From: Bacteroidales bacterium
Lineage (GTDB): Bacteria; Bacteroidota; Bacteroidia; Bacteroidales; JAADJA01
NCBI GenBank assembly: GCA_026984135.1
Contig: JALSSR010000035.1
Location: forward strand, 6,529 to 70,528
Direction of reading: 5' to 3'
DNA: 64,000 bases
Shown: positions 18,683 to 50,059 of the stretch, in pieces
How the letters are laid out: each line of letters opens with the position of its first letter
Position numbering within the stretch: the stretch's first letter is position 1
Notes under the pieces: generated by a model
What the model saw: only the letters and a program-made list of their open reading frames with translations
Database searches by the model: none
Told to the model about the DNA's origin: nothing
Position numbers and translations under genes: made by a program

Positions 18683-18690
18683 TATATTTG
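18683..18690 (+). promoter_or_regulatory. Bacteroidota-type -7 promoter box TAtaTTTG
   Basis: It matches TAnnTTTG and lies 25 nt upstream of the ATG at 18715. Confidence 0.4.
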
Positions 18691-18714
18691 GCAACTTTTA
18701 CAAATTTATCGAAT

Positions 18715-21700
18715 ATGAGAAAACAACTACTTTTTGTCTTATTGTCTCTGATCTTTTCACTTTCTTATGCCGACGGATGGCGCAAAGATGAAATGCAGGT
18801 AAGAATTCAGGTATCCTCCCAACAGCAGGTTACACAATTGAAAAAACTAAATATTAATTTTGAAATTGCCGATTATTCAACAGGCGAGATCAGAGCTTTT
18901 GTAACACCCGGTGAGTTACAAAAGTTACAAGGCCTTAATTTGCAATATCAGGTTGAAATTGAAAATCTGAATGACCATTTTAAGAATTTTTGGATAACGG
19001 AAGATTCATATCATTCATACCAGCAAATAATTGATCTTGCCGACAGTCTCGAAACGGAGTTTCCCGCAATATGCAAAAAGTACAACTTCGGTACGGATGC
19101 ATCAGGCCAATATGACCTGGTTGCATTAAAAATCAGCGATAATGTTCTAACCGATGAGCCTGAAGCCGAGGTAATGTTTGATGCCGGAATACATGGAGAT
19201 GAAATCGGAGGCCCTGAAAATGTGATCAGATTTGCACGCGACCTTTGCATAGGTTACGGTGACGATCCCACAATAACAAACCTTATAGACAATCGTGAAA
19301 TATGGCTCTACCTGATGGTTAATCCCTGGGGTAGGGAAAATATGAGCCGTTATAATTCCAATGGCGTTGATATGAACCGTGACTGGGGATATATGTGGGA
19401 TGGATGGGGAAGCAGTACAGGAGCATATTCGCAACCGGAAGTAAAAGCATTACGTGAATGTATGTATAATAATCAGTTTGTTGTGCACACAACATATCAC
19501 AGCGGTACCGTTTATATATCACTACCCTGGAGCTATAGGTCAAGCTCTCCACCTGACTGGGCGCATATCTATCAACTCGGCGGTGTTTACTCAAACAGTT
19601 CAAATTATCCGAATCTCCCTTACGGACAGGGAAACACAGGGATGTATGCTATAAACGGAAGTTCTAAAGATTCAAACTATGGTGTTCAGGGCTCAATTTC
19701 CTGGTCAATGGAGATTTCGGATAACAAGCAACCTCCCGCATCTCAGATAATGACTTATTACAACTATAACTATCCTGCAATGATGGCAATGATTGAATAT
19801 TCGGGATACGGAGTGCAGGGTACGGTCACGGATGCAAATACCGGAGAGCCCGTTACCGCTGTTGTTTTTGTAAATGATTATATGCCGACATTCACCGACC
19901 CCACGGCAGGTGATTATCATAAATATGTACTTCCCGGAACTTATACAATTAAAATTGTTGCCAACGGATATCAGACACAAACAATTGATAATATCACCGT
20001 AACATCAAATAACGCAACAACCACCGATTTTCAGCTTGTACCTGAGGACGGGCAGTATGTTTATAAGTTTTCCGCATCTCAAATACCGGGAAATAACGAG
20101 GCTGACGAGGGAAACACTCCTGCCGTTATAGGAGCTCCTGACAACATCAATTATTCCATCGGCAAAAACGGCTGGTGTGTTCTTGATATGCAGTATCCCG
20201 TTATTGATGGCCCCGGCCCCGATCTGATTGTTTATGAAGGAGATACTTCTCCCGAAGGTTTCACCTGCTACGTCGGGGAAACCATTGACGGTCCCTGGCT
20301 GAGTCTCGGTACCGGAAACGGAACAACGGAATTTGATATTGCGGCTTCCGCTCTTCCCGAAGCTCAATTTGTAAAAATCGTTGATGACGGCGACGGCTCA
20401 GGAAATGTGGCGGATGCCGGATTTGACCTTGATGCTATCGAGGCACTGGAGCCTGTCTCCGGAGTTTATCTTGCAATGTATGATTATACTGTTGACGATT
20501 CAAACGGCAACAACAACGGGAAAATTGATCCGGGAGAAACGGTTGACATTATCGTTACTTTGAAGAATAACGGAGACATTACTGCGGAAAATGTTTCGGG
20601 TGAGATATCCACAACTTCACCTTACCTGATAATTGATGAAAGTAACGCCTCATTCGGAACGCTGGCACAAAGCGAAACGGGAGAAGGTACTTTTACGGTT
20701 ACGGCTAACGCAGCTACTCCTACGGGACAGCCTGCCGATATTGATCTCAATGTAACCTCAAACGGCGGGTCATATTCAAATGATTTTACAATGGGATTTG
20801 TCATAGGACAGATACCGGTGGTAATAATTGACCTCGACGGTAACCATAACTCCGGTCCTGCAATGCAAACTGCAATAGAGGCCAACGGACTTGCTGCTGA
20901 ATATACAACATCTTTTCCTTCATCCCTCGATATCTACAGCTCCATATTTGTTTGTCTTGGTGTTTATAGCGACAACCACACGCTTTCCGCAACGGAGGGA
21001 CAGGCATTAGCAGATTTTTTAAATAACGGAGGCTCGCTATATATGGAAGGAGGTGATACCTGGTACTATGATGATCAGACCGCCGTACATCCGATGTTTA
21101 ATATTGATCCCCAGGAAGACGGAAGCAGTGATCTGTTAACCGTAGAAGGTCAGACAGGCACTTTTACCGAAGGTATGTCGTTTAATTATAGTGGAGATAA
21201 CAGTTGGATTGATCATATAGGTGCAAACTCACCTGCTTACGTTGTTTTTGAGAATAGCAATCCCTCTTACGGAACTGCCGTTGCTTATGATGCCGGTTCT
21301 TACAAAACAATAGGCGCTTCCCACGAATTCGGCGGTTTAACCGACGGAACGTCTCCTTCCACAAAAGCCGAACTGATGGCGGAATATTTGAATTTCTTCG
21401 GGTTAAATGCCTCTTTGCAAGCTTCTTTCTCTGCAAGTGCAACCGATATTTGTGAAGAAGAGACCTTAGATTTTACCGATCTCTCAACAGGCAATGTTAT
21501 AAGTTGGGAATGGACTTTTGAAGGTGGAACACCCGAAACCTCTACAATGGAGAATCCCACCGTAATGTATTACAATTCAGGTTCGTTCGATGTTACTTTA
21601 GCCGTTTCCGACGGATCAAATACAAGTACGTTGACTATTGAGGATTACATAACTGTAAGTACTTCTCCTGAAATACCGGCAAAACCGGAAGGTGAAGAAT

Positions 21701-22209
21701 TAGTTTGTACAAACTTACCATCCATGCTGGTCCAGGAATATACTACCACAGGCTCAACAAATGCCAATAGCTACGAATGGTTGCTGGAACCTGCTGATGC
21801 AGGTGAAATTACAGGTAGCGGAACCACTGCAACTGTAAATTATATACAATATTGGCAAGGTGACGTATCAATCAGCGTGAAAGCTGTTAACGATTGCGGT
21901 GAAAGTGATTATTCGGAATCTTTTGTCATCAATTGTGATATCTGTGGAGGTGTCGAAGAAGATAACCTTAATAAAATCAGTATCTTCCCGAATCCCGGCA
22001 ACGGATCATTCATAATTAACTTGAATGAACCGATTAATAAAAATATATCTGTAAAAGTGTACAATTCCATTGGTGAAGTAGTGTTTGAAAAAAATGATAT
22101 TACTTCGGGTCAGATTAATATCAATCTTGGTGAAACTAATCCCGGATTGTATTATGTCATTATTAAAAATGATAGATTTACAGTCAATAAAAAAATAATT
22201 GTTAATTAA
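18715..22209 (+). CDS. T9SS-secreted M14 zinc carboxypeptidase, multidomain (M14 + CarboxypepD_reg-like + CARDB-like + unknown ~200-aa module + PKD + T9SS CTD)
   Basis: The signal peptide MRKQLLFVLLSLIFSLSYA starts at the ATG at 18715 (the track's TTG at 18688 is less likely). M14 features are the HxxE zinc motif (GIHGDEIGG), NPWGRE, NRDW and a later HSG. The PKD domain contains FDVTLAVSDG and the CTD reads ISIFPNPGNGSF...GLYYVII. Confidence 0.85.
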   Translation: MRKQLLFVLLSLIFSLSYADGWRKDEMQVRIQVSSQQQVTQLKKLNINFEIADYSTGEIRAFVTPGELQKLQGLNLQYQVEIENLNDHFKNFWITEDSYHSYQQIIDLADSLETEFPAICKKYNFGTDASGQYDLVALKISDNVLTDEPEAEVMFDAGIHGDEIGGPENVIRFARDLCIGYGDDPTITNLIDNREIWLYLMVNPWGRENMSRYNSNGVDMNRDWGYMWDGWGSSTGAYSQPEVKALRECMYNNQFVVHTTYHSGTVYISLPWSYRSSSPPDWAHIYQLGGVYSNSSNYPNLPYGQGNTGMYAINGSSKDSNYGVQGSISWSMEISDNKQPPASQIMTYYNYNYPAMMAMIEYSGYGVQGTVTDANTGEPVTAVVFVNDYMPTFTDPTAGDYHKYVLPGTYTIKIVANGYQTQTIDNITVTSNNATTTDFQLVPEDGQYVYKFSASQIPGNNEADEGNTPAVIGAPDNINYSIGKNGWCVLDMQYPVIDGPGPDLIVYEGDTSPEGFTCYVGETIDGPWLSLGTGNGTTEFDIAASALPEAQFVKIVDDGDGSGNVADAGFDLDAIEALEPVSGVYLAMYDYTVDDSNGNNNGKIDPGETVDIIVTLKNNGDITAENVSGEISTTSPYLIIDESNASFGTLAQSETGEGTFTVTANAATPTGQPADIDLNVTSNGGSYSNDFTMGFVIGQIPVVIIDLDGNHNSGPAMQTAIEANGLAAEYTTSFPSSLDIYSSIFVCLGVYSDNHTLSATEGQALADFLNNGGSLYMEGGDTWYYDDQTAVHPMFNIDPQEDGSSDLLTVEGQTGTFTEGMSFNYSGDNSWIDHIGANSPAYVVFENSNPSYGTAVAYDAGSYKTIGASHEFGGLTDGTSPSTKAELMAEYLNFFGLNASLQASFSASATDICEEETLDFTDLSTGNVISWEWTFEGGTPETSTMENPTVMYYNSGSFDVTLAVSDGSNTSTLTIEDYITVSTSPEIPAKPEGEELVCTNLPSMLVQEYTTTGSTNANSYEWLLEPADAGEITGSGTTATVNYIQYWQGDVSISVKAVNDCGESDYSESFVINCDICGGVEEDNLNKISIFPNPGNGSFIINLNEPINKNISVKVYNSIGEVVFEKNDITSGQININLGETNPGLYYVIIKNDRFTVNKKIIVN

Positions 22210-22275
22210 TATTACAGACTAAGATTAAGTGGTAAAGAAAAGTCACGAATTTTCTTTATCCTAAAAAAAAAATTT

Positions 22276-25200
22276 ATGAAAAAGCTATATCTGTTAACTA
22301 CACTGATTACGATTTTCTTTACTGTTAATGCTGAAAACATCAGATATCCCGATCACTGGGGGAAACAAGGATTATCTGTGGTTTCACAAAACAGTAATTC
22401 CGTAACAATCAATTTTTCAATTGAATCATTTGGTATTTCAAACAAACTGCTCAACGGGAAAACGGTTCAGGAAATATCCCTGTCCGGTGTTTTTCTTCCC
22501 GGGACAGAGGGAGCACCAAATCTTCCGGCAATGAGCCGTTTTATTGCAATTCCCGAAGGAGCAAATGCAGAACTGGCAATTATCAGCTTCAGAAAGGAAA
22601 TTTTTGAGAATGTTGATATTGAACCTTCACCGGTAATTCCCTGGGACACCGAAGAAGGACCGCTGAAGTACAAAAAAGATTATGAGATTTACTCTGAGGA
22701 TGCTTTTTATCCTGATAATCCGTTTCAACTTTCGGAAAGGACGGAATTGAGAGGAGTGGATGCCGTTATTTTGGGAATAACTCCGTTTCAATATAATCCG
22801 GTTACAAAACAGTTAATTGTTTATCGCGATTTAAAGGTTATGATTTCGTTTAAAGGAGGAAATGGTAATTTTGGTGATGACCGGTTAAGAAGTCGTTGGT
22901 GGGATCCCATTCTCAGAGATGCTTTCCTGAACGAAAGTTCAATCCCTGCTATTGATTATAACAAATTGTCATCGGGTAAGGATGAAACAGGTTGTGAATA
23001 CCTTATAATAACTCCTAACGGAGCTGAGTTTCAGCAGTGGGCTGATTCTTTGAAGGTTTTCCGTACAAATCAGGGCATCCTCACAAAAGTTGTTACTCTT
23101 GATGAAATTGGAGGTAACAATGTCAACACAATTGAGAATTATTTGAATGATGCATATAATACGTGGGATATTCCACCGGCAGCCTGCCTTATAATGGCTG
23201 ACTTCGGTACTAATCCCGAGAACAGGATAATTGCACCAATCTGGGATAATTATTGTGCTTCGGATAATATATGGGGAGATGTCAACAACAATAATCTTCC
23301 GGATATTGTGATGGCAAGGATGACCGCTCAAAATGCGGAACAGTTGGAAACTATGGTTACAAAGGTTATTGATTATGAAAGAAATCCGCCATCTTCAGAG
23401 TATTTTTACATGCACCCTGTTACAGCACTGGGATTTCAAACGGAAAGATGGTTTCAAATATGTTCTGAGGCAGTAGCAGGATTTTGGGAAAATGAACTGG
23501 GAAAAGAGACCGTTAGAATCAATAAGACCTATCAGGGAAATCCTATGACTGATCCCTGGTCAACGGCATCTAACACAGGAGTAGTCTTAAATGTTTTCGG
23601 GCCTAACGGTCTCGGGTATATACCTTCTGCCCCTGCACAGGTCGGTTGTACATGGAGCGGAAGCGCCGGTGATGTTACAGACGCCATTAATGCGGGTTCT
23701 TTTATGCTTCAACACCGTGATCACGGTGGTGAAACCGGATGGGGAGAACCCTCTTTTCACAGTAGTGATATCAGCAGCCTGACGAATACTGATTTAACAT
23801 TCATCTGGTCGGTTAACTGCCTGACCGGCAAATATAACCTGTCGGGTGAATGCTTTGCCGAAAAGTTTCACAGATATAAATATAACGGACAAAATGCAGG
23901 TTGTAACGGAATTGTTGCTGCTTCGGAGGTTTCCTATTCTTTTGTTAACGACACATATGTGTGGGGAGCCTATGATAATATGTGGCCTGACTTTCTGCCA
24001 CAATATGGCAGTAATCCTGAATACAGAGGGATATTGCCTGCCTTTGCCAATGCAGCAGGAAAAATATTCCTGTGGCAGTCAAGTTGGCCTGCAAATCCTG
24101 ATAATAAAGAGGTAACCGTTAATCTTTTCCATCTTCATGGAGATGCCTTTATGACTGTATATTCCGAAATGCCGCAGGAACTTACCGTTCTGCAAAATGA
24201 AGTATTACTTGGAGGACAGTCATTTATAACAATTACGGCGGATACGGCAGCATTAATAGGAATAACACTCAATGGCGAACTGATTGGCTCGGCAATTGCA
24301 ACTGGTGAGCCAATTGATATTCCCATACAGCCACTGACACCCGGAGAAGAGATTCTCGTGACGGTTACTAAACAAAACTTTTTCAGATACGAGCAATCCG
24401 TTGAGGTCGTGTCTCCCGATATTCCGTATGTCGTTTATAAATCGCATACTCTTAATGATGAGGCCGGAAACAATGATGGGAAAATGGATTATGGTGAGAC
24501 GATCATGCTTACTGTAGAACTTCAGAATATCGGATTGGTTCAGGCAGATAATGTATCTGCTACATTGAGTGCTGATAATGAATATGTTGAAATTACCGAT
24601 GGCTCTGAGGTTTATGGGAATATGACGGCTAATGCAACAATATCCATGACTGATGCTTTTGCTTTTAATGTGGCTAATGACATTCCCGATGATCAAAATA
24701 TTGTTTTTACCCTTGAAGCGACTGATGGTGCGGAGATATGGACAAGTCATATTGTCTTAAAATCGCATGCTCCCATACTTGAATTCATTGATTTTTCTGT
24801 TTCCGATGCTTCCGGAAATAATAACGGACGGATTGAACCGGGTGAAACCGGTGAGATAACGGTAACAGTTGGGAACAACGGCTCTTCCGATGCATTAAAT
24901 GTCATTGGCGAACTTATCAGCAATAATGAATATATTGAAGTTACTAACTCTTCACAATCATACGGAACGCTTTCCGGAAATTTAGTTGTTCAGAAAACAT
25001 ATACTATCACTGCCGACCCGGATACACCCGAAGGTTTTCAGTCTGTTTTCGATTTTAATATTTCAGCCGATTTGGGAATAACCGGATTTGGTGATTTTTA
25101 TATTGTTATTGGCAGATATACTGCCCTTATCCTTGATCTGGATACCAAGAATTACTCCGGCCCCGGAATTTATGAGACATTTAATGACATGGATATATTT

Positions 25201-26025
25201 TCAGAATATACCACGGAGTTTCCTGATGACCTTAATCTGTATAAAAATATCTTTGTGTGTTTAGGCATCCATTTTACAGGACATACATTAACAAATAGTG
25301 AAGGTAATAAACTCAAAGAATATCTCTTAAACGGCGGAAACCTTTATATGGAGGGAAGAATTACCTGGTCTGAAGATCCTGCAACACCTGTGCATCCCTA
25401 TTTTAATATAGCTTCTCAGGATACATCGTGGTTTCAGTATGAGTTCATTCAGGGAATAGAGGGAACATTTACCGGTGGAGTTAATTTTGAATACGATGGT
25501 GAAAATGCTATCGGTCACTATGCTTTAGCTCCTGAAGGTAATGCCTTTGCCGTTTTTCAAACTCAGGAACCGGAATATATTTGCGGAATTGCCAATGATG
25601 CCGGGGACTACAAAACAATAGGAACCTCATTCGAATTCGGGAAGATGCTGGACGGAGAGTCACCTTCGACAAGGGTTGAGCTTATGCAACAGGTACTGAA
25701 CTGGTTTGACGGTATGGTAACCGGAAATGAAATAGCAGATAATATAAGTTCGGACAAAAGTATGTCGGTTTTCCCCAATCCTTTTAACACTGAAACGACC
25801 ATTAGTATCGAATTGCAATCGGGCTCTGATGCCACACTGAAGATTATAAACAGTGAGGGACAGGAAATACGGACACTGATTGATAATAAAACTCTTTCAT
25901 CCGGAAAAACAGATGTAACCTGGGACGCTAAAAACCGTTATGGTAAGGATGTCCCTCCGGGATTATACTTCGGAATTCTTACAACGGATTCAAAGACAGA
26001 AATATTAAAACTTATAATTCAATAA
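22276..26025 (+). CDS. T9SS-secreted gingipain-like C25 cysteine peptidase (paralog 1)
   Basis: It has a C25-like layout: a propeptide region, ...ACLIMADFG...ASDNIWGDV...PDIVMARM, a His motif MLQHRDHGGETGWGEP and a Cys motif FIWSVNCLTGKYN. This is followed by CARDB-like domains, the shared ~200-aa module, and the CTD (SVFPNPFNTETTI...GLYFGIL). Confidence 0.8.
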   Translation: MKKLYLLTTLITIFFTVNAENIRYPDHWGKQGLSVVSQNSNSVTINFSIESFGISNKLLNGKTVQEISLSGVFLPGTEGAPNLPAMSRFIAIPEGANAELAIISFRKEIFENVDIEPSPVIPWDTEEGPLKYKKDYEIYSEDAFYPDNPFQLSERTELRGVDAVILGITPFQYNPVTKQLIVYRDLKVMISFKGGNGNFGDDRLRSRWWDPILRDAFLNESSIPAIDYNKLSSGKDETGCEYLIITPNGAEFQQWADSLKVFRTNQGILTKVVTLDEIGGNNVNTIENYLNDAYNTWDIPPAACLIMADFGTNPENRIIAPIWDNYCASDNIWGDVNNNNLPDIVMARMTAQNAEQLETMVTKVIDYERNPPSSEYFYMHPVTALGFQTERWFQICSEAVAGFWENELGKETVRINKTYQGNPMTDPWSTASNTGVVLNVFGPNGLGYIPSAPAQVGCTWSGSAGDVTDAINAGSFMLQHRDHGGETGWGEPSFHSSDISSLTNTDLTFIWSVNCLTGKYNLSGECFAEKFHRYKYNGQNAGCNGIVAASEVSYSFVNDTYVWGAYDNMWPDFLPQYGSNPEYRGILPAFANAAGKIFLWQSSWPANPDNKEVTVNLFHLHGDAFMTVYSEMPQELTVLQNEVLLGGQSFITITADTAALIGITLNGELIGSAIATGEPIDIPIQPLTPGEEILVTVTKQNFFRYEQSVEVVSPDIPYVVYKSHTLNDEAGNNDGKMDYGETIMLTVELQNIGLVQADNVSATLSADNEYVEITDGSEVYGNMTANATISMTDAFAFNVANDIPDDQNIVFTLEATDGAEIWTSHIVLKSHAPILEFIDFSVSDASGNNNGRIEPGETGEITVTVGNNGSSDALNVIGELISNNEYIEVTNSSQSYGTLSGNLVVQKTYTITADPDTPEGFQSVFDFNISADLGITGFGDFYIVIGRYTALILDLDTKNYSGPGIYETFNDMDIFSEYTTEFPDDLNLYKNIFVCLGIHFTGHTLTNSEGNKLKEYLLNGGNLYMEGRITWSEDPATPVHPYFNIASQDTSWFQYEFIQGIEGTFTGGVNFEYDGENAIGHYALAPEGNAFAVFQTQEPEYICGIANDAGDYKTIGTSFEFGKMLDGESPSTRVELMQQVLNWFDGMVTGNEIADNISSDKSMSVFPNPFNTETTISIELQSGSDATLKIINSEGQEIRTLIDNKTLSSGKTDVTWDAKNRYGKDVPPGLYFGILTTDSKTEILKLIIQ

Positions 26026-26055
26026 ATAAATACAAATAATTTCAACTTTGTAACT

Positions 26056-29000
26056 ATGAAAATTTCATTTAAAAATTTCAGATTTACTGCCCTGCTTTTA
26101 GTGGCAGTCACTTTTTTAGCAACGGCTTTAAAAGCCGATGAAGTGAAGTATGACGACAGTTGGGGAAAGCAAGGCTTTTCCGTAACTACTCAAAAATCGT
26201 CGGGATTGACAATTAACTATTCAATCAACTCATTCAGATTACAAAACAGCCTGATTAACGGCGAAGCAATGACAAAGATCGAGCTTCCTGGCGTTATGCT
26301 CCCAAATAATGAAGGTGCACCTGATTTGCCGGGAACAGGCCGCTATATTGCTATTCCTAATGGTGCAAAAGCTTCGGTAAAAGTTATTGCAACAAGAACC
26401 GAAAAATTCACCGGTGTTGAGGTTGCCCCTTCACCGAGAATTCCCTGGGATACCGAAGACGGGCCTCTGGATTACAATAAGGATCAGGAAATATATTCGG
26501 CTGATCAGCTATATCCTGCTAATCCGGTTATCCTTTCCGAACCTGATGTCATAAGGGGTGTTGATGTTATTATGCTGGGAATTACTCCGTTTCAATATAA
26601 TCCGGTCACAAAAGAGCTCATTGTTTACAGAGATTTTAAAATTGAAGTAACTTACGAAGGCGGAAACGGTCAGTTTGGTGATAACAGACTGCGCAGTCGC
26701 TGGTGGGATCCGATGCTGAAAGATATGATCCTCAACAGTGAATCTCTCGCAAAAGTTGATTATAACAACCTTTATAAAGGTGCAACAAAAGAGACCGGTT
26801 GTGAATACCTTATCATAACTGCAAATAATGCAACTTATCAAAGTTGGGCCGACTCAATTAAAGAATTCAGGACGAAGCAGGGAATACTTACAAAAGTTGT
26901 TACTGTTGATGAGGTTGGAGGAAACAATGTCAATGCCATTGAAAGTTATGTTAATGATGCTTACAACACCTGGGACATTCCACCGGCAGCCTGTCTTCTT
27001 ATCGGTGATTACGGTTCCAACGGGGATATGAATATTATGGCTCCCATTTGGGATAACTATTGTGCTTCCGATAATATTTATGCGGACGTAACTAACAATA
27101 AAATGCCGGATATTGTATTTGCAAGAATACCTGCCGGAAATACATCCGAACTGGAAATTGAAGTAACCAAGTTTCTTAATTATGAAAGAAATCCGCCGAC
27201 AAGCGAATATTTTTATAATCATCCCATCACAGCCCTCGGTTTCCAGACCGAGAGATGGTTTCAAATCTGCTCCGAAGCTGTTGCCGGTTTCTGGGAAAAT
27301 GAACAAGGTAAAAGCACAGTCAGGATCAATAAAACATATCAGGGTAATCCTAACAGCGATCCATGGTCAACTGCAACAAATACGAGTACAGTGGTAAATA
27401 CTTTCGGACCTAATGGTCTCGGCTATATTCCGGCTACTCCCGGACAGGTAAACTGTACATGGTACGGTAGTGCAAGCGACGTAGTAAATGCCATAAACAG
27501 CGGAGCATTTATGCTTCAACATCGTGACCACGGTTATGAGCAAGGCTGGGGTGAGCCCTCTTTCGGAAGTAGTAATATCAACAGTCTAAATAATACCGAC
27601 CTCACGTTTATTTGGTCAATAAACTGTCTTACGGGAAAGTACAATCTGTCGAGCGATTGCTTTGCCGAAAAATTCTTACAACGTACTTCGGGTGGAAATA
27701 ATGCTGGAGCACTGGCCATTGTTGCAGCTTCGGAAGTTTCGTACTCCTTTGTTAACGATACTTATGTTTGGGGTTGCTATGACAATATGTGGCCTGACTT
27801 TTTGCCGACTTACGGAACCACACCGGATTCCAGGGGCGTTTTACCTGCTTTTGCAAGTGCTGCCGGAAAATATTTCCTGCAACAGTCAAGCTGGCCGTAC
27901 AACTCCGGAAATAAAGAAGTTACCTACAACCTTTTTCATATGCTGGGTGATGCTTTTACAACGGTTTACTCTGAAGTCCCGCAGCTTCTTACTGTAACTC
28001 ACGAACCCATATTCTTCTCGGGACTGACCTCTTTTGAAATTACTGCCGACGAAGGCTCCTTGATAGCCTTAACCGTTGATGGTGAAATTATTGGTACCGG
28101 AGAAGGAACAGGATCTCAAATTGCAATTCCCATTGAATCACAAATGCCGCAAAGTACAATTATTGTTACCGTTACAAAACAAAATTACTATCGCTATGAA
28201 TCTCAGGTGGAGGTTCTTCCTCCGACCGGGCCGTATATCGTTAAGGATTCATATTATATAACTGATGATGGTGTTCTTGTAAATGGGGATATGAATCCGG
28301 ACGAGAATATTGAGCTTACGGTTACTTTGAAAAATATTGGAGTTGAACTTGCTGAAAATGTTTCGGTTATGCTTTCTTCAGATGATCCGTATATTACGAT
28401 AACAGATGACAATGAGGTTGCCGGAAATATTTCATCGGGTGCACTGGTAACCATTGAGAACGGCTTTTCCTGGTATGTCCATAACGATATTCCGGATTTG
28501 CATTCCGTACTCTTTACTTTGACTTCAACAGACGGAGACAATACCTGGGAGACTCAGTTCAGTATCAATGCCTTTTCACCTGTTTTGGAAATAGGTGATT
28601 TCATAATTGATGACTCAGAAGGAAACAATAACGGAAGACTTGACCCCGGTGAAACTGCCGTTGTAAAGATAGAAACAACAAATAACGGCTCTTCCTTTGC
28701 ATTGACTACACATGGTATGCTTACGGCAACATCTCCGTTTATAACAATGGAAAACAATACTTACGATATGAATGTAATTGCAATTGGTTCAACCAAAACG
28801 GCGGAATTTACAATTACCGCCGATGCAAATGCACCCAATGGAACTGCATATCTGCTGCAATATAAGGCTCAATCTTTGGGATTTATCGTTGACAATGTCT
28901 ATTCACAAAATATCGGCTTTGCTTCCGAAGACTGGGAGACAGGCGATATGACTAAATATGACTGGCAAACATCCGGCGATGCCGACTGGACAATTTCGGA

Positions 29001-30384
29001 AGAGTCGCCTTACGAAGGAACATATTGTGTTAAGACAGGTGCCATAGGTGACGGAGAAAATACCGCACTTTCAATTAATTATGTTGTGGGAGAGAACGGT
29101 ACAATTTCATTCTACTACAAAGTCTCATCACAGCAAAATTATGATAAGCTGAAGTTTTATGTTGACAATACCGTCAAAGCACAGTGGTCGGGTGAAATTG
29201 ACTGGACACAGGTTACTTATTACAACATTTCTCCGGGAGAACATACTTTTAAATGGGCTTACATCAAAAGTGCAAATACCTCAAGCGGCAGCGACTGCGG
29301 ATGGATTGATATGATCTATCTGCCGGATCCTGTCACTGTTACGGCTTTTGCAGGTGATGATGCTTCCCTTTGCGAAAATGAAGTGTTCAATTGTGAAGGA
29401 TTCGGTTCTCCTTCGGCTACTTTTGAATGGGCTACATCGGGAACAGGAACCTTTGAGGATGTAACCGACCCGGCAACAGTTTATATTCCGGGTGAGGAAG
29501 ATTATCAGTCCGGCTCGGTTGTCCTTACCTTGACTGCTACCGGCTCCGGACAGACTTCAAGTGATGATTTGACACTCTCGCTTCATTATGCTCCTGTCGC
29601 TGAGGCAGGTAATACTCTTGAAGCCTGCAGTAATTCGTTTATTCCTGATGCATTGGCGGAAAACTATCAATCAATTATATGGACAACAACAGGCGATGGA
29701 ACATTTGATGACAACACTTTGGTTACTCCCGAGTATGTTGCAGGCGAAACCGATATTTCAAATGGTGAAGTAACCCTGATAATGACGGTTAACGGATATG
29801 CACCCTGCGGTACAGTGACCGACACATTGGTTGTTTCGGTAACGGCAGCACCCGAAACCTTTGCCGGTGATGACCACGACATCTGTGAAGGACAAACTTA
29901 CACTATTTCCGATGCTCTTGCCGAAAACTATAACGATATTTTATGGGAAACATCCGGTGACGGATCTTTTGACGATGCAACGGTTATGAATCCGGTTTAC
30001 ACTCCCGGTCCCAATGATATTGATGCTGAAGAGGTAACATTGACAATGACTGCATCCGGAAATGGGGTTTGTGAAGCTATTAGCGATGATATGTTGCTGA
30101 CTATCAAATGTCTCGGAATTGATGATAATTATCTTAGCTCTAAAATCTCCGTATTCCCCAATCCAAATACCGGAGATTTTACAATTGATATTGATGCCGA
30201 AATTAATGATCCGGTGAATATCAAAATCCTCAATTCGCTTGGAAATACGGTTTACACTATTGATGATGTTAAAATTAATAACAACAGGAGTGTCCCGCTT
30301 AATATTGATGTTAAGGCAGGGCTATATTATTTATATATTGAAAACGATGAACATTCAATTGTTAAAAAAGTAATTATACAATAA
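26056..30384 (+). CDS. T9SS-secreted gingipain-like C25 cysteine peptidase (paralog 2) with jelly-roll-like domain and three ~75-aa Cys repeats
   Basis: The catalytic region is highly similar to 22276..26025 (HRDHGYEQGWGEP; FIWSINCLTGKYN). The C-terminal half differs. The CTD reads SVFPNPNTGDFTI...GLYYLYI. Confidence 0.8.
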   Translation: MKISFKNFRFTALLLVAVTFLATALKADEVKYDDSWGKQGFSVTTQKSSGLTINYSINSFRLQNSLINGEAMTKIELPGVMLPNNEGAPDLPGTGRYIAIPNGAKASVKVIATRTEKFTGVEVAPSPRIPWDTEDGPLDYNKDQEIYSADQLYPANPVILSEPDVIRGVDVIMLGITPFQYNPVTKELIVYRDFKIEVTYEGGNGQFGDNRLRSRWWDPMLKDMILNSESLAKVDYNNLYKGATKETGCEYLIITANNATYQSWADSIKEFRTKQGILTKVVTVDEVGGNNVNAIESYVNDAYNTWDIPPAACLLIGDYGSNGDMNIMAPIWDNYCASDNIYADVTNNKMPDIVFARIPAGNTSELEIEVTKFLNYERNPPTSEYFYNHPITALGFQTERWFQICSEAVAGFWENEQGKSTVRINKTYQGNPNSDPWSTATNTSTVVNTFGPNGLGYIPATPGQVNCTWYGSASDVVNAINSGAFMLQHRDHGYEQGWGEPSFGSSNINSLNNTDLTFIWSINCLTGKYNLSSDCFAEKFLQRTSGGNNAGALAIVAASEVSYSFVNDTYVWGCYDNMWPDFLPTYGTTPDSRGVLPAFASAAGKYFLQQSSWPYNSGNKEVTYNLFHMLGDAFTTVYSEVPQLLTVTHEPIFFSGLTSFEITADEGSLIALTVDGEIIGTGEGTGSQIAIPIESQMPQSTIIVTVTKQNYYRYESQVEVLPPTGPYIVKDSYYITDDGVLVNGDMNPDENIELTVTLKNIGVELAENVSVMLSSDDPYITITDDNEVAGNISSGALVTIENGFSWYVHNDIPDLHSVLFTLTSTDGDNTWETQFSINAFSPVLEIGDFIIDDSEGNNNGRLDPGETAVVKIETTNNGSSFALTTHGMLTATSPFITMENNTYDMNVIAIGSTKTAEFTITADANAPNGTAYLLQYKAQSLGFIVDNVYSQNIGFASEDWETGDMTKYDWQTSGDADWTISEESPYEGTYCVKTGAIGDGENTALSINYVVGENGTISFYYKVSSQQNYDKLKFYVDNTVKAQWSGEIDWTQVTYYNISPGEHTFKWAYIKSANTSSGSDCGWIDMIYLPDPVTVTAFAGDDASLCENEVFNCEGFGSPSATFEWATSGTGTFEDVTDPATVYIPGEEDYQSGSVVLTLTATGSGQTSSDDLTLSLHYAPVAEAGNTLEACSNSFIPDALAENYQSIIWTTTGDGTFDDNTLVTPEYVAGETDISNGEVTLIMTVNGYAPCGTVTDTLVVSVTAAPETFAGDDHDICEGQTYTISDALAENYNDILWETSGDGSFDDATVMNPVYTPGPNDIDAEEVTLTMTASGNGVCEAISDDMLLTIKCLGIDDNYLSSKISVFPNPNTGDFTIDIDAEINDPVNIKILNSLGNTVYTIDDVKINNNRSVPLNIDVKAGLYYLYIENDEHSIVKKVIIQ

Positions 30385-30403
30385 TTTGAACTTGCTAAAA
30401 ACA

Positions 30404-30441
30404 AAAAGCTCTACCCTTATGGGTGGAGCTTTTTGTTTTTT
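30404..30441 (+). terminator. Rho-independent terminator after the peptidase genes
   Basis: AAAAAGCTCTACCC-TTAT-GGGTGGAGCTTTTTGTTTTTT. Confidence 0.7.
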
Positions 30442-30488
30442 AGATTCAATCTAAATTATTTTTTTCTTTTAATATATTCAGTTTTTTG

Positions 30489-30496
30489 TATATTTG
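30489..30496 (+). promoter_or_regulatory. Bacteroidota-type -7 promoter box TAtaTTTG
   Basis: It matches TAnnTTTG and lies 40 nt upstream of the ATG at 30536. Confidence 0.4.
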
Positions 30497-30535
30497 CCAC
30501 TTTCACAATTAGTTTTAACCTAAATATTTGTATTT

Positions 30536-32176
30536 ATGAAAAGAAAATTACTTGCATTTGTTTTTGCCCTTGTTGCAACTGTTGCTTTCTCGCAGACGGT
30601 TCCACGGGATAAAGTTGTTATTGAGATCGGCACGGCCACTTGGTGAACTTACTGTCCATATGCAGCAGCAGCGGCTGACGATATGATAGCAAACGGTTTT
30701 GATGTTGCCGTACTCGAACATCACGTATCTTCATCCTATTCAGGTTTTACAAACCAATATTCCCAGGCAAGGATAAGCTATTACGGAATAGGTGGAATTC
30801 CGGAATCCATTTTCGACGGAGTATTAAGTGTTCTGGGTGGTGGTTCTAGTACTTATAATTCATTTGTTTCAAAATATAACCAGCGAATTGCGATACCTTC
30901 GGATTTTACTATTTTGGTAAACGGCATGAATGAAGGACTTGATTACACCGTAGTGCTAACTATGGAAAATGTTGTACCGAATTCAAGTTCCAATTTAGTG
31001 GCTCATCTTGCTATAAACGAGTCGGGACTTCAATATCAGGGTACTACATACAATTTTGTAACCAGGATGTTTGTTCCTAATGCAAACGGTACTGATGTTG
31101 ATTTTTCATCTAATCCGATGCAAACGGTTACTCTGAATTTCAGTATGGATCCTTCCTGGAATCTTGAGAACTGTGAGTTTATAGCATTTATTCAGGATAA
31201 CTCCTCAAAAGAAATACTTCAGGCAACAAAAGTTCCGGTACTTGATATAGTTCCGTTGACAACAAACAATGCAGCCATACAAAATATGGATATGGTACCT
31301 GTAACTAATTGCGCCGGTGATGTAGCACCCCTTGTAACTATTTCGAACCAGGGAGCACAGAGTTTAACATCACTGAATATCAATTATGTTGTAAACGGTG
31401 AAGCTTCCGAGACTTATGCCTGGACAGGTGATCTTGCATTTCAGGCTACGGAGGATGTACAGTTACCCCCGCTTTCATTTGAAATTCAGGATGATAACGA
31501 CCTGGTAGTTTACGTTACAGATCCTAACGGAAATGATGATGAGGACACTTCAAACGATACTATTGCCACTTCCTTCACCTCTGCTGTTCAGACAGTTCCC
31601 TACATCTTTCTGTTCATAAAACTTGACGACAACCCACAGGAGATAACCTGGGAATGTAAAGATTCGGAAGGACAGGTTCTTTTTAGTCACGGGCCCTATT
31701 CCACCCCCAATGCTTTTATAAAAGATACGCTCTTTATTACCGATAACGGATGTTATACATTTGAGATCAATGATGCCGGTGGTGACGGACTTACAGGTGC
31801 CGGATTTTACAGGCTGACCGGTGGCGACGGTACTGAGATTATCTTTAACACTGATTTTGAAGGAAGCAACGAACTGGTACAGTTTGGTGTGCTTGGTACC
31901 GGTGTGGAATCACTAAGCACCGAAGATTCTTTCAGCATATTCCCAAATCCGTTTGAAGACTATACTAATGTTAGTTTCTCAATGAACAAATCTGACAATG
32001 TGGAATTGAAAGTATATGATATTACGGGTAAGGTTGTATTCGGTAGTAAGCCCGAAATGTTAAATGCAGGCAGCCACTCTGTAAAAATTGATGCCGGTAA
32101 TTTTAATTCGGGTATCTATTTTGTCAGTCTTAAAATTGGTGATGAACTTATGACGAAAAAAATAACAGTAAATTAA
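30536..32176 (+). CDS. T9SS-secreted thioredoxin-fold protein with an in-frame TGA (30644..30646) at the first position of a WCxxCP-type redox motif; selenoprotein candidate, or a pseudogene
   Basis: The ATG at 30536 is in frame with track ORF 30683..32176 (147 nt apart). The upstream part encodes a signal peptide, MKRKLLAFVFALVATVAFSQ, then ...VVIEIGTATW-[TGA]-TYCPYAAAAADDM.... A later GIPESIFDG fits the thioredoxin cis-Pro loop. The CTD at the end reads FSIFPNPFEDYTNVSF...GIYFVSL. Confidence 0.65.
30657..30685 (+). promoter_or_regulatory. Candidate SECIS-like stem-loop downstream of the in-frame UGA
   Basis: CATAT(G)CAGC-AGCAGCG-GCTG(ACG)ATATG forms 5+4 bp around a small internal loop, with a 7-nt G-containing apical loop about 21-27 nt after the UGA. 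Confidence 0.3.
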
Positions 32177-35457: not shown

Positions 35458-35964
35458 ATGAAAACACGTTTGTTAACCACAATCACGGCATTAATAATCT
35501 TCACCGGACATTTAATGTCACAGGAAATCCTTCCCGATTTTAATCTTTACACTCTGGAAGGAATTAAGTTGTCAACTCAAAGAATTGTAAATGACTCGAT
35601 GCCGACAATTATGGTATTTTGGAAAACCTATGATGATAAATGTTGTAATGAGCTCGTTGACCTGAATGATGTGTTTGTCGGAAAGCTCAAAGATAAAGGG
35701 GTAAGGGTAGTTGCTGTTTGTGTTGATAACACAGGAAATATGGATCAGGTCAGGACTTTTATTTATGGTCATGATATTGAGTTTGATGTTTATTTTGACA
35801 AAAATGAAGAGTTTATGCGTGCTATGAGCATCCCGACAGTACCGTTCACAATACTGTTTGATAAATATACCCAACCTTATTGCAAATACCTTGGTTATTG
35901 TCCTGCCATTGATGAAATGCTATGCAAAAAAGTAGAGGAATCATTGGCATTGAGAGTGGAATAG
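35458..35964 (+). CDS. TlpA/redoxin-like thioredoxin-fold protein with a degenerate active site
   Basis: It has a signal peptide and a redoxin-like pattern (LPDFNLYTLEG...IMVFWKTYDDKCCNE...VVAVCVD...IPTVPFTILFD). WKTYDDKCC takes the place of the usual WxxWCxPC. Confidence 0.6.
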   Translation: MKTRLLTTITALIIFTGHLMSQEILPDFNLYTLEGIKLSTQRIVNDSMPTIMVFWKTYDDKCCNELVDLNDVFVGKLKDKGVRVVAVCVDNTGNMDQVRTFIYGHDIEFDVYFDKNEEFMRAMSIPTVPFTILFDKYTQPYCKYLGYCPAIDEMLCKKVEESLALRVE

Positions 35965-36000: not shown

Positions 36001-36405
36001 TTGTCATTTCCTATGGATGTGGGTTCGGAGGATTCGATAAAAAAGGTGAAATCGGAGCTTGATAACCTGGGTGTAACGGTTAAGTATCTGATAAACAATG
36101 CAGGAATATATTTTATTCATCCGGTTTCGGAAATGACCGGGGAAATGCTTGATAAGATAATGAAAGTTAATACTTACGTGAAAAACAGCAAATATCAGGT
36201 GCCTTTGAGAAAGTTTATTGACAAAGCAATAAATAACGTGGGAAAGACCGTTGAGCCCGGTGAAGTTGCCGCTATTGTAAAAAAGGCTCTTGCCGCATCT
36301 AATCCCAAAAGGGTTTACAATATCAACCGCAACAAAACAATAACGTTTATGTCGCTTTTGCCGCAAAGAACAGTTGATTACTTAATCCGAAAAATATTTA
36401 GATAA
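36001..36405 (+). pseudogene. Short-chain dehydrogenase/reductase remnant (N-terminal Rossmann part and catalytic Ser-Tyr-Lys region missing)
   Basis: It keeps ...MDVGSEDSIKKV...YLINNAGI...MKVNTY (the SDR NNAG segment) and then jumps directly to a C-terminal tail. There is no TGxxxGxG and no YxxxK. Confidence 0.55.
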
Positions 36406-49182: not shown

Positions 49183-49216
49183 TACGGGAAAATTCAAGAA
49201 ATGAATCGGATTAATT

Positions 49217-49256: not shown

Positions 49257-49280
49257 TATTATTGCAAATAAAAAACAAAA

Positions 49281-50054: not shown

Positions 50055-50059
50055 AATCA

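What the first reader, a model, noticed from the sequence alone, without database searches (positions are those of the whole stretch)
18683..32176. 13.5-kb island of four consecutive T9SS-secreted enzymes (M14 carboxypeptidase, two C25 gingipain-like peptidases, thioredoxin-fold protein) flanked by two orphan sensor kinases
Seen directly:
- Four same-strand genes of 1164, 1249, 1442 and about 546 codons each carry a signal peptide and a T9SS sorting domain.
- The first three are separated by only 66 and 30 bp and are followed by a strong terminator (30404..30441), so they probably form one operon.
- The fourth gene has its own TAnnTTTG box.
- The island sits between a multi-PAS histidine kinase (15162..18551) and a propeller/LytS-type kinase (32243..35170). 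No response regulator is present anywhere in the window.

Established knowledge: C25 peptidases are best known as Porphyromonas gingipains.

Inference: an exopeptidase, two endopeptidases and a redox protein exported together suggests a dedicated extracellular protein-degradation or protein-processing module.
Basis: partly seen in the sequence, partly recalled or inferred. Interest (0 to 1): 0.55.

Follow-up and report, generated by a model that had tools for sequence, protein, structure and literature searches.

The report
Secreted protease cluster hiding a selenoprotein
A conserved Bacteroidales gene cluster encodes a carboxypeptidase and two gingipain-like proteases for type IX secretion, and the thioredoxin-like gene beside them, truncated by gene callers in every database copy examined, reads as a selenocysteine protein.

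Summary
The four-gene T9SS cargo cluster is real. It comprises an M14 carboxypeptidase, two C25 peptidases and an Omp28/HBP35-like thioredoxin-fold protein. Catalytic residues are canonical. The order M14, C25, C25, Omp28-like recurs in many Bacteroidales MAG loci at 46-84% identity. Genes 1-3 look like one operon. Gene 4 has its own terminator-plus-promoter spacer, and relatives keep this arrangement.

It occupies the first Cys position of the redox motif (W-U-T-Y-C). The same TGA occurs in 19 distinct loci, and the protein sequence is conserved on both sides. Full-length homologues have Cys there. The strongest synonymous-site constraint in the whole gene lies just 3' of the TGA, over a conserved SECIS-like hairpin. 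Gene 4 is therefore almost certainly a T9SS-exported UxxC selenoprotein. Databases list it as a 497-aa fragment with no signal peptide.

Omp28-related selenoproteins are already known (GOS_C, NCBIfam NF045500). This clade scores far below that model's cutoff. Every evaluable Sec-type locus sits directly downstream of a C25 gene.

Not tested: Sec machinery in the genome and the protein's redox role. The downstream kinase is not conserved. Verdict: new variant of a known kind, moderate interest.

The parts
15162..18551 (+). Multi-PAS HisKA/HATPase sensor kinase with no receiver domain. It is an upstream neighbour and is only partly conserved with the cluster.
   Evidence: Pfam finds 7 PAS stretches plus HisKA and HATPase_c. 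A 60%-identical C-terminal part lies just upstream of the M14 gene in L007. It is absent upstream of the M14 gene in L012 and L074.
18683..18690 (+). TATATTTG (Bacteroidetes-type TAnnTTTG box), 25 nt before the gene 1 ATG. Candidate promoter of the M14-C25-C25 operon.
   Evidence: The motif alone is not enriched in the window (84 matches against 76 expected).
18715..22209 (+). Gene 1, a T9SS-secreted M14B (CPD/CPG70-like) metallocarboxypeptidase. Layout: signal peptide, M14 domain, transthyretin-like domain, Ig-like domain, GATase1-like domain, PKD domains, CTD.
   Evidence: Pfam M14 E 6.7e-41, plus CarboxypepD_reg, PKD and Por_Secre_tail. HGDE160, NRD221, H262 and E333 align to the human CPD catalytic motifs. 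Called as 1164 aa in public assemblies.
22276..26025 (+). Gene 2 (C25a), a gingipain-family cysteine peptidase zymogen. Layout: signal peptide, C25 propeptide, C25 catalytic domain, Ig/CARDB-like domains, GATase1-like domain, CTD.
   Evidence: Pfam Propeptide_C25 7e-24 and Peptidase_C25 6e-42. His483/Cys515 align to RgpB His211/Cys244. TIGR04183 scores 33.9 bits against a cutoff of 23.
26056..30384 (+). Gene 3 (C25b), a second gingipain-family zymogen. It is 59% identical to C25a over residues 13-929 and has a different C-terminal half carrying three Cys-containing repeats before the CTD.
   Evidence: Pfam Propeptide_C25 and Peptidase_C25 4.9e-45. His492/Cys524 sit in the same HRDHG...NCLTG motifs. 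CTD confirmed.
30397..30440 (+). Intrinsic terminator ending the M14-C25-C25 unit. It is a 20-bp stem with a 4-nt loop followed by a U-run.
   Evidence: -32.5 kcal/mol, z = -9.0, 0 of 200 shuffles as stable. Hairpins of -16 to -38 kcal/mol lie at the same place in 14 related loci.
30489..30496 (+). TATATTTG box 40 nt before the gene 4 ATG. Candidate own promoter of gene 4.
   Evidence: In 15 of 15 loci a TAnnTTTG box starts 40-50 nt before the orthologous ATG.
30536..32176 (+). Gene 4, an Omp28/HBP35-like thioredoxin-fold selenoprotein (546 aa with U37). Layout: signal peptide, Trx-like domain with W-U-T-Y-C, Omp28 beta-sandwich, Ig-like domain, beta-sandwich, T9SS CTD.
   Evidence: Translation. 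Pfam Omp28 44.7 bits (GA 34.9) and Por_Secre_tail. NF045500 Omp28_seleno 75.9 bits. Cys homologues. Fold.
30644..30646 (+). In-frame TGA, read as selenocysteine (U37), at the first position of the CxxC redox motif.
   Evidence: The same codon is TGA in 19 distinct loci. The aligned codon is TGT or TGC in 20 of 20 Cys-form loci. TGA ends 3 of 35 large ORFs in the window, so it is a normal stop here.
30662..30679 (+). Candidate bacterial SECIS core. The stem is G19-CAGC23 paired with G31CUG34-(A)-C36, with a 7-nt loop AGCAGCG starting 20 nt after the UGA. A possible lower stem extends to about 30652..30689.
   Evidence: The four core pairs hold in 19 of 19 sequences (GC to GU in 4). MFE of the 60 nt from the UGA is -12.4 kcal/mol. 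The gene's highest synonymous-site conservation is at codons +2..+19, p = 0.0004. This constraint is absent in Cys forms. The hairpin fits the bSECIS model of PMC13188914.
32197..32223 (+). Terminator-like hairpin after gene 4, between the two convergent genes.
   Evidence: 11-bp stem followed by TTTTTGTTT.
32243..35170 (-). Reg_prop/Y_Y_Y/LytS-type His_kinase/HATPase sensor kinase, convergent with gene 4. Not part of the conserved cluster.
   Evidence: Pfam. No homologue lies next to the cluster in any related locus. In L003, L004, L006 and L067 the Trx-like gene follows gene 4 directly.
35458..35964 (+). Exported AhpC-TSA/Redoxin-fold protein (168 aa) with FWKTYDDKCC where WCxxC is expected. 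It is the conserved downstream neighbour of gene 4 in relatives.
   Evidence: Pfam and sequence. Copies 67-71% identical lie about 200 nt after the selenoprotein gene in L003, L004, L006 and L067.

Best explanation
This is a conserved Bacteroidales gene cluster for cell-surface or extracellular proteolysis exported by the type IX secretion system.

Shown:
- An operon encodes a CPG70-like M14B carboxypeptidase and two gingipain-family (C25) zymogens. All have intact catalytic residues, signal peptides and type-A CTDs.
- Immediately downstream, after a terminator and its own TAnnTTTG promoter box, lies a gene for an HBP35/Omp28-like thioredoxin-fold protein.
- Its redox motif is U-x-x-C. The first position is an in-frame UGA.

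Inferred with high confidence: SelB and tRNA-Sec decode that UGA as selenocysteine, directed by a small hairpin about 20 nt downstream (a SECIS inside the coding region). The full 546-aa protein crosses the inner membrane through its signal peptide and the outer membrane through the T9SS.

Inferred with lower confidence: on the surface it acts as a thiol-disulfide oxidoreductase that serves the neighbouring cysteine peptidases. It could keep or restore their catalytic cysteines in the reduced state. It could also open disulfide bonds in protein substrates so the endopeptidases can cut and the carboxypeptidase can trim the products. The second route mirrors how CPG70 trims gingipain products in P. 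gingivalis.
For: Architecture and catalytic residues.

Synteny:
- The order M14, C25, (C25), Omp28-like recurs in L003-L005, L066, L007-L009, L012/L074, L013, L021, L011/L070 and L015.
- All 18 Sec-type loci with at least 590 bp of upstream sequence have a C25 gene ending within 600 bp.
- The terminator-plus-promoter spacer is conserved in 15 of 15 loci.

Selenocysteine:
- TGA occurs at the identical codon in 19 distinct loci spanning 46-84% aa identity.
- The 36 codons 5' of it, holding the signal peptide and first beta-strand, are conserved as protein while varying synonymously.
- Without them the 497-aa remainder would have a T9SS CTD but no signal peptide.
- Cys occupies this position in 20 of 20 full-length homologous loci and in the full-length database proteins inspected.
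- Cys and Sec paralogues sit in tandem in L008 and L013.
- TGA is an ordinary rare stop in the window.
- The top eight synonymous-constraint windows of the whole gene all lie around the TGA, mostly just after it. Pairwise codon identity is 0.79 there against 0.45 elsewhere, p = 4e-4.
- Ala codons +6 and +7 are GCA in 37 of 37 Sec-form cases and mixed in Cys forms.
- That region forms an invariant hairpin fitting the published bSECIS model.

Family context:
- The best NCBIfam hit is 'Omp28-related selenoprotein' NF045500. This is GOS_C, a predicted UxxC Trx-fold selenoprotein.

Fold and function by analogy:
- The AF2 model of a 53%-identical Cys homologue (pLDDT 89) has a Trx fold with CxxC at the start of helix 1.
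- Its best PDB match is P. gingivalis HBP35 (E 1.6e-10; profile hit at the CxxC region).
- HBP35 is a T9SS cargo with demonstrated CxxC-dependent disulfide-reductase activity (PMC2907840).
- CPG70 and the gingipains cooperate in P. gingivalis (PMC5445135).
Against: - No selA, selB, selD or tRNA-Sec gene is in the window or in about 1.7 Mb of fetched loci. The rest of the genome could not be searched.
- The SECIS hairpin has no covariation because its four core pairs are invariant. The lower stem is not in one register. Subfamily B loops lack a G in the first two loop positions.
- The window hairpin region as a whole is not more stable than shuffles (z = +0.56).
- Gene 4 is transcribed separately from the peptidases.
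- P. gingivalis hbp35 mutants keep normal Rgp and Kgp activity. This argues against an obligatory Trx-to-gingipain dependence in that species.
- No extracellular electron donor is evident.
- T9SS cargo genes are dense in this genome (8 in 64 kb), so some clustering is expected.
- C25 and M14 substrate specificities were not determined.
Confidence: 0.7

Rival explanations
1. The TGA in gene 4 is a true stop. The gene is either a pseudogene or a 497-aa protein starting at ATG 30683, as all databases annotate it. The upstream 36 codons would be a meaningless or separate mini-ORF.
For: Gene callers in NCBI, JGI, ENA and Logan all report 486-501-aa products. ENA calls a separate 36-aa ORF. No Sec machinery has been seen. 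TGA is used as a stop elsewhere in the window.
Against: - The identical TGA is kept in 19 distinct loci down to 46% identity. The upstream 36 codons are under protein-level conservation with synonymous change.
- A 497-aa product would carry a T9SS CTD but no signal peptide and no first beta-strand or redox residue of its Trx fold.
- Homologues have Cys exactly there.
- A peak of synonymous constraint and a hairpin lie right after the TGA in Sec forms only.
Confidence: 0.05
2. Gene 4 is a real selenoprotein, but its job is heme or metal acquisition or general surface redox defence, as proposed for HBP35 hemin binding. It would not service the neighbouring peptidases. The adjacency to C25 genes would reflect a shared nutrient-acquisition regulon or simple inheritance within one clade.
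For: HBP35, the best structural match, binds hemin and is needed for growth under hemin limitation, while its loss does not change gingipain activity. Gene 4 has its own promoter and terminator. More distant Cys-type homologues are often not adjacent to C25 genes.
Against: C25 adjacency holds for all 18 evaluable Sec-type loci and for the nearest Cys-type loci across about 46-84% identity, despite other rearrangements. No heme-binding motif or heme-uptake gene was seen in the cluster. Sequence similarity to HBP35 is confined to the CxxC region.
Confidence: 0.2
3. The four genes are just neighbouring T9SS cargo genes in a cargo-rich genome with many C25 paralogues. There is no functional module.
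For: Eight CTD genes lie in 64 kb. Related loci carry up to five C25 paralogues within 20 kb, so any gene there is likely to be next to one. The kinases flanking the cluster are not conserved.
Against: The specific order and orientation (M14, C25a-type, C25b-type, Omp28-like) and the spacer architecture are retained between genomes with only 46-60% protein identity. The functional pairing of an M14B carboxypeptidase with C25 endopeptidases has an experimental precedent in CPG70 and the gingipains.
Confidence: 0.1

Closest known systems
GOS_C / NCBIfam NF045500 'Omp28-related selenoprotein' (Zhang & Gladyshev 2008, PMC2398784; catalogued in PMC13188914)
   Same: Same superfamily, and it is the best NCBIfam hit (residues 25-247). 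It has a Trx-like fold, a UxxC motif with Sec at the first position, many Cys homologues and no known function.
   Different: The window protein and all tested clade members score 56-94 bits against a cutoff of 200. They are not covered by that curated model, and the NCBI-sourced copies in the hit list are the truncated length. This clade adds an Ig-like domain, a beta-sandwich and a T9SS type-A CTD. It is syntenic with C25 peptidase genes. The papers read say nothing about secretion route or genomic context.
HBP35 (PG0616) of Porphyromonas gingivalis, PDB 5Y1A
   Same: Both are T9SS cargo with an N-terminal thioredoxin-like domain carrying the redox motif, followed by a beta-rich domain and a CTD. 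HBP35 is the top Foldseek hit (E 1.6e-10, TM 0.59 on the target). A profile hit covers the CxxC region. HBP35 has measured disulfide-reductase activity that depends on its two Cys.
   Different: HBP35 uses Cys, not Sec. It is shorter (344 aa). It is not encoded next to the gingipain genes (own knowledge, not tested here). Its mutants keep gingipain activity. Sequence similarity outside the active-site region is undetectable.
Gingipains RgpB/Kgp (peptidase family C25)
   Same: Genes 2 and 3 have the C25 propeptide, the catalytic domain with an aligned His/Cys dyad, the Ig-like domain and a T9SS CTD. They are zymogen-type secreted cysteine endopeptidases.
   Different: Similarity is low (E 1e-16 to RgpB). 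The S1 specificity residues (Asp163 in RgpB, Asp516 in Kgp) could not be aligned, so Arg or Lys specificity is unknown. There are no haemagglutinin/adhesin domains. CARDB-like, GATase1-like and Cys-repeat domains are present instead. The source is an uncultured environmental Bacteroidales organism.
CPG70 (PG0232), the Arg/Lys-specific M14 carboxypeptidase of P. gingivalis
   Same: M14 catalytic domain plus PKD domains plus a T9SS CTD. In P. gingivalis it trims C-terminal Arg and Lys left by gingipain cleavage, which is a precedent for M14 and C25 cooperation.
   Different: Here the M14 gene is physically in an operon-like unit with the C25 genes. It also carries an extra GATase1-like domain. 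Its specificity was not tested.
Omp28 family (Pfam PF11551; NCBIfam NF033782 lipoprotein Omp28)
   Same: The beta-sandwich following the Trx domain matches PF11551 above its gathering score.
   Different: NF033782 scores only 27 bits against a cutoff of 150. The protein has a type-I-looking signal peptide and a T9SS CTD rather than a lipoprotein signal.

Membership tests
Bacterial selenoprotein (Sec-UGA decoding) | In-frame TGA conserved at the same codon in orthologues, with coding conservation on both sides | tested here: met
   19 distinct loci have TGA at the aligned codon. The upstream 36 codons and the downstream 509 codons are conserved as protein.
Bacterial selenoprotein (Sec-UGA decoding) | Homologues with Cys at the position of the TGA | tested here: met
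   TGT or TGC in 20 of 20 Cys-form loci. The full-length database homologues inspected have WCxYCP.
Bacterial selenoprotein (Sec-UGA decoding) | bSECIS stem-loop just 3' of the UGA: loop of 3-9 nt, stem of at least 4 bp, G in the first two loop positions, spacing of 16-37 nt, MFE at or below -7.5 (PMC13188914) | tested here: inconclusive
   The window hairpin meets all four criteria: 4+1 bp stem, loop AGCAGCG, 20-nt spacing, -12.4 kcal/mol. It coincides with the gene's peak of synonymous constraint. However, the stem shows no covariation and subfamily B loops lack the early G.
Bacterial selenoprotein (Sec-UGA decoding) | selA, selB, selC (tRNA-Sec) and selD present in the same genome | not testable with these tools
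   None found in the window or in the fetched loci. The rest of the MAG cannot be searched here.
Bacterial selenoprotein (Sec-UGA decoding) | TGA is otherwise a stop (no code 4 or 25 reassignment) | tested here: met
   Of 35 large ORFs, 22 end in TAA, 10 in TAG and 3 in TGA. Homologues have Cys, not Trp or Gly, at this site.
NCBIfam NF045500 Omp28_seleno (equivalog domain) | Score at or above the curated cutoff of 200 bits | tested here: not met
   75.9 bits for the window protein and 56-94 bits for six other clade members. It is a relative, not a member of the curated equivalog.
Thioredoxin-fold oxidoreductase | beta-alpha-beta-alpha-beta-beta-alpha fold with C/UxxC at the N-terminus of helix 1 | tested here: met
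   AF2 model of the 53%-identical Cys homologue P0011: E27-33, CxxC 37-40, H40-52, E57-63, H74-82, E90-93, E97-100, H109-120, pLDDT above 90. Top PDB match is HBP35. The window protein itself could not be submitted.
Thioredoxin-fold oxidoreductase | Thiol-disulfide oxidoreductase activity | not testable with these tools
   Known only by analogy to HBP35.
Peptidase family C25 (gingipain-like) | Pfam PF01364 above the gathering score, plus the propeptide PF08126 | tested here: met
   144.6 and 154.8 bits (GA 23). Propeptide 84.5 and 78.8 bits.
Peptidase family C25 (gingipain-like) | Catalytic His and Cys aligned to RgpB His211 and Cys244 | tested here: met
   C25a His483/Cys515. C25b His492/Cys524 in identical motifs.
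Peptidase family C25 (gingipain-like) | S1 pocket acidic residue giving Arg or Lys specificity | not tested
   The region was not aligned by HMMER.
Peptidase family M14, subfamily B (CPD/CPN/CPG70-like) | Zn ligands HxxE...H, substrate-binding NR, catalytic Glu, followed by a transthyretin-like domain | tested here: met
   HGDE160, NRD221, H262 (YHSG), E333 (SMEIS) and residues 367-441 align to human CPD. The best PDB relatives are CPD, CPN and CPM.
T9SS type-A cargo | C-terminal sorting domain TIGR04183/PF18962 above cutoff, plus an N-terminal signal peptide | tested here: met
   TIGR04183 scores 34.4, 33.9, 37.6 and 48.0 bits (cutoff 23). Signal peptides were read by eye only.
T9SS sortase PorU (NF033707) | Full-length match at or above 420 bits | tested here: not met
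   Only the CTD region matches (60 bits). The C25 genes are cargo-type, not PorU.

The most novel reading that the evidence does not exclude
A clade of cell-surface selenoproteins exported by the type IX secretion system serves as the dedicated redox partner of gingipain-family cysteine peptidases in anaerobic environmental Bacteroidales. Selenocysteine would give a surface-exposed reductase the nucleophilicity and resistance to over-oxidation needed to keep extracellular cysteine proteases active, or to unfold disulfide-rich substrates, outside the cell. This would be an extracellular, Se-dependent proteolysis system that current annotation misses because the gene is truncated in the database copies examined.
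Probability: 0.3. Interest if true: 0.7.

Novelty: new variant of a known kind. Interest (0 to 1): 0.5.

Why it matters
Annotation. The Sec-form genes examined here are listed in public protein sets as 486-501-aa fragments lacking their signal peptide and active site (more than 40 clusters in one search). NCBI's curated Omp28-selenoprotein model does not reach them. Correcting this adds a distinct, widespread branch to the bacterial selenoproteome.

Biology. In the library searched, no paper links selenocysteine with type IX secretion. If confirmed, this would be a first described example of a selenoprotein routed through the T9SS to the cell surface. Its near-obligate position behind C25 peptidase genes gives a concrete, testable hypothesis for what the long-uncharacterised GOS_C/Omp28-like Trx-fold selenoproteins do.

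Comparative. The P. gingivalis virulence toolkit (gingipains, CPG70, HBP35) has a physically clustered counterpart in environmental Bacteroidales. This may illuminate how those factors cooperate and how the toolkit evolved.

Tried and rejected
- Covariation test of the SECIS hairpin. The four core pairs are invariant and my proposed lower stem pairs in only 26% of cells, so there is no covariation support. I replaced it with a synonymous-constraint analysis.
- Whole-region RNA folding of the 71 nt from 4 nt before the TGA is not more stable than shuffles.
- Sec machinery search. ARAGORN found no tRNA-Sec in the window or the loci. Pfam scans of all window ORFs of 134 aa or more found no SelA, SelB or SelD.
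- A scan for other in-frame-TGA genes in the window found only gene 4.
- The terminator scan tool did not list the 30397..30440 hairpin. Direct folding confirmed it.
- PDB sequence search and Pfam on the M14/C25a shared domain gave nothing. Fold search identified a GATase1-like fold.
- Genetic-code reassignment of TGA was rejected.
- PorU identity of the C25 genes was rejected.
- L065, a distant TGA-containing homologue, was dropped because its frame breaks after the motif.
- Literature searches for 'Omp28 + selenoprotein' and 'selenocysteine + type IX secretion' found nothing relevant.

Full report
**1. Observation.**
The region contains four same-strand genes as described.
- Pfam and NCBIfam give gene 1 (18715..22209) Peptidase_M14, CarboxypepD_reg, PKD and a T9SS C-terminal sorting domain.
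- Genes 2 (22276..26025) and 3 (26056..30384) have Propeptide_C25, Peptidase_C25, the C25 Ig-like domain and a CTD.
- Gene 4 has Omp28 (PF11551) plus a CTD.
- The gaps are 66 and 30 bp.
- A 20-bp hairpin with a U-run follows gene 3 (30397..30440, -32.5 kcal/mol, z = -9).
- TATATTTG boxes precede gene 1 (18683) and gene 4 (30489), and none lies in the short gaps.
- The flanking genes are a 7-PAS HisKA kinase and a Reg_prop/Y_Y_Y/LytS-type kinase.
- No receiver domain occurs in any window ORF of 134 aa or more.
- The same sequence occurs in two independent public assemblies.

**2.
Gene 4 is not one open reading frame.
- From ATG 30536 the frame encodes a signal peptide and a beta-strand, MKRKLLAFVFALVATVAFSQTVPRDKVVIEIGTATW.
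- A TGA follows at 30644-30646, then TYCPYAAAAADDMIANG... and on to the CTD.
- The mechanical ORF, and every database entry, starts at Met50 (497 aa). ENA additionally calls the 36-codon stub.

**3. Evidence that the TGA encodes selenocysteine.**
- (a) A database search returned more than 40 close homologues of 486-501 aa that begin just after this point. The full-length homologues read ...VEIGTGTWCxYCPGAAMGADDL..., with Cys where the window has TGA.
- (b) I fetched DNA from species-representative genomes and metagenomes. The identical in-frame TGA is present in 19 distinct loci at 46-84% protein identity. They form at least three sequence subtypes: W-U-xYCPYAAAAAD, VVEEATGTW-U-S[FY]CPSAA and DAVG-U-PYCPS.
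- (c) The 36 upstream codons are conserved as protein while varying synonymously. Without them the product would have a T9SS CTD but no signal peptide.
- (d) TGA is a normal, rare stop in this window, ending 3 of 35 ORFs. Homologues have Cys, not Trp or Gly, so a genetic-code change is excluded.
- (e) Downstream of the TGA the Sec forms share an invariant hairpin. C20AGC23 pairs with G31YUG34 around a 7-nt loop starting 20 nt after the UGA. For the window sequence this satisfies the published bSECIS model.
- (f) The stem gives no covariation because it never varies. I therefore measured synonymous constraint. In 13 de-replicated Sec-form genes the eight most constrained windows of the whole gene all lie around the TGA, mostly just after it. 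Pairwise codon identity is 0.79 there against 0.45 elsewhere, p = 4e-4.
- (g) The two Ala codons that form the 5' arm are GCA in 37 of 37 Sec-form cases. In Cys forms they are a mixture of GCA, GCT, GCC and GCG.
- (h) L008 and L013 carry a Cys paralogue and a Sec paralogue in tandem.
- The one missing element is the Sec machinery. It is not in the window or in the fetched loci, and it cannot be searched for in the rest of the genome.

**4. What gene 4 is.**
- Its best NCBIfam hit is NF045500, 'Omp28-related selenoprotein' (75.9 bits, cutoff 200).
- This model corresponds to 'hypothetical protein GOS_C', a Trx-fold UxxC selenoprotein predicted from ocean metagenomes in 2008. It is listed among 119 known families.
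- Neither the window protein nor six other members of its clade approach the cutoff, scoring 56-94 bits. The clade is a relative outside the curated family.
- An AlphaFold model of the 53%-identical Cys homologue P0011 (pLDDT 89) shows a canonical thioredoxin fold with the CxxC at the start of helix 1. The Omp28 beta-sandwich, an Ig-like domain, another beta-sandwich and the CTD follow.
- The best PDB match is P. gingivalis HBP35. The family profile also hits HBP35 at the CxxC region.
- HBP35 is a T9SS cargo whose recombinant form reduces insulin disulfides faster than E. coli thioredoxin, and this depends on its two Cys. It also binds hemin.

**5. The peptidases.**
- C25a His483/Cys515 align to RgpB His211/Cys244, and C25b has the same motifs. 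Both keep the inhibitory propeptide.
- They are not PorU, because only the CTD matches that model.
- The M14 domain has the Zn ligands, the NR motif and the catalytic Glu. It is followed by the transthyretin-like domain typical of the CPD/CPN (M14B) subfamily.
- This architecture, M14 plus PKD plus CTD, is that of P. gingivalis CPG70. [quoted passage not shown]
- Substrate specificities were not determined.

**6. Synteny and transcription units.**
- tblastn of the window proteins on all loci shows the order M14, C25, (C25), Omp28-like in every related locus with enough flank. These are L003-L005, L066, L007-L009, L012/L074, L013, L021, L011/L070 and L015.
- All 18 Sec-type loci with at least 590 bp upstream have a C25 gene ending within 600 bp.
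- In 15 of 15 loci the C25-to-Omp28 spacer has a strong hairpin of differing sequence and a TAnnTTTG box starting 40-50 nt before the ATG. A separate transcription unit for gene 4 is therefore itself conserved.
- The Y_Y_Y kinase is not conserved. In L003, L004, L006 and L067 the exported Trx-like gene (window 35458..35964) follows gene 4 directly.
- The PAS kinase recurs only in L007.
- More distant Cys-type homologues are less consistently linked to C25 genes. The linkage is a property of this clade.

**7. Mechanism.**
- Shown: a conserved cluster of T9SS cargo genes with intact active sites, and a conserved UGA/Cys pair at the redox position with an RNA-level constraint behind it.
- Inferred, strong: gene 4 is translated through the UGA as a 546-aa selenoprotein and exported through the Sec translocon and the T9SS.
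- Inferred, weak: it acts on the surface as a thiol-disulfide oxidoreductase supporting the cysteine peptidases, through re-reduction of the catalytic Cys or reduction of substrate disulfides. The M14 enzyme would then trim the products.
- Against the weak step: hbp35 mutants keep gingipain activity, gene 4 is transcribed separately, and no extracellular electron donor is evident.
- A heme- or metal-related role is the main rival.

**8. Novelty and verdict.**
- Each component belongs to a known kind.
- New here is a T9SS-CTD-bearing, C25-linked, Sec-containing branch of the Omp28/HBP35-like family. The curated model does not capture it, and the database copies examined are truncated.
- No paper in the held library connects selenocysteine with type IX secretion.
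- I rate it a new variant of a known kind, of moderate interest.

Noticed in passing
window 20782-21414 (gene 1 residues 690-900) and 25093-25725 (gene 2 residues 940-1150): The M14 protein and C25a share a roughly 310-aa segment at 43% identity. Its last 210 aa have no Pfam or PDB sequence match. They model with pLDDT 92 as a class-I glutamine-amidotransferase-like fold, with best matches to the IFT52 N-domain, the GH42 trimerisation domain and ThuA-like proteins. Cys, Glu and His are nearly invariant (FVCLG, YMEGGD, AVHP), so this could be a second catalytic domain or an oligomerisation domain.
   Followed up: partly
window 35458-35964 (+); L003 8297-8800, L004 7663-8166, L006 2622-3125, L067 2431-2925: An exported AhpC-TSA/Redoxin-fold protein has FWKTYDDKCC in place of WCxxC, so the first redox Cys is replaced by Asp. 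It is the conserved immediate downstream neighbour of the selenoprotein gene in relatives (67-71% identity). In the window the Y_Y_Y kinase gene sits between them. It may be a redox partner.
   Followed up: partly
L008 8031-9680 and 9851-11488; L013 8034-9683 and 9851-11497: A Cys-form and a Sec-form paralogue of the Omp28-like gene lie in tandem in the same genome. Cys forms (L011/L070) are also interspersed among Sec forms at similar identity. This suggests repeated Sec/Cys exchange.
   Followed up: partly
L020 about 9908-10000; L093 about 9854-9960: In two distant homologues, one from a Candidatus Cloacimonas MAG, the TGA is at the Trp position just before an intact CxYC (GTGG-TGA-CPYCP and GTGT-TGA-CQYCP). 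This could be a different Sec position (UCxxC), a TGG-to-TGA mutation or a sequencing error.
   Followed up: no
L015 about 9960-10030; L017 about 9960-9990: The orthologous genes show a frameshift shortly after the redox motif. L015 has an extra base inside the GCAGCAGCA run. These are assembly errors in the repeat or real pseudogenes.
   Followed up: no
window 56-862 (+), 39399-41636 (+), 44169-46472 (-), 52948-54471 (-): Four more T9SS type-A CTD genes lie in the window: a PKD-like protein, a NosD/beta-helix protein, an FG-GAP plus PKD protein and a PKD protein. T9SS cargo is very dense in this genome.
   Followed up: partly
window 47851-52470 (+): A COX1-like protein (443 aa), a CbbQ/NorQ AAA ATPase, a VWA (NorD-like) protein and a COX3-like protein lie in a row. 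This looks like a nitric-oxide-reductase or heme-copper-oxidase accessory cluster.
   Followed up: no
window 36001-36405 (+): A 134-aa ORF matches only positions 54-109 of the short-chain dehydrogenase profile. It lacks the N-terminal Rossmann part and starts 37 nt after the preceding gene, so it is probably a gene remnant.
   Followed up: no
window about 29350-30110 (gene 3 residues about 1100-1350): There are three tandem repeats of about 75 aa with a conserved pattern (C...E/LAENY..I.W.T.GDG.F.D......Y.PG..D......V.LT.TA.G). They have no Pfam match and sit before the CTD of C25b.
   Followed up: no
window 30397-30440: The consensus terminator scan did not list this very strong hairpin-plus-U-run. 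Direct folding gives -32.5 kcal/mol. This is a method caveat for anyone relying on that scan.
   Followed up: yes
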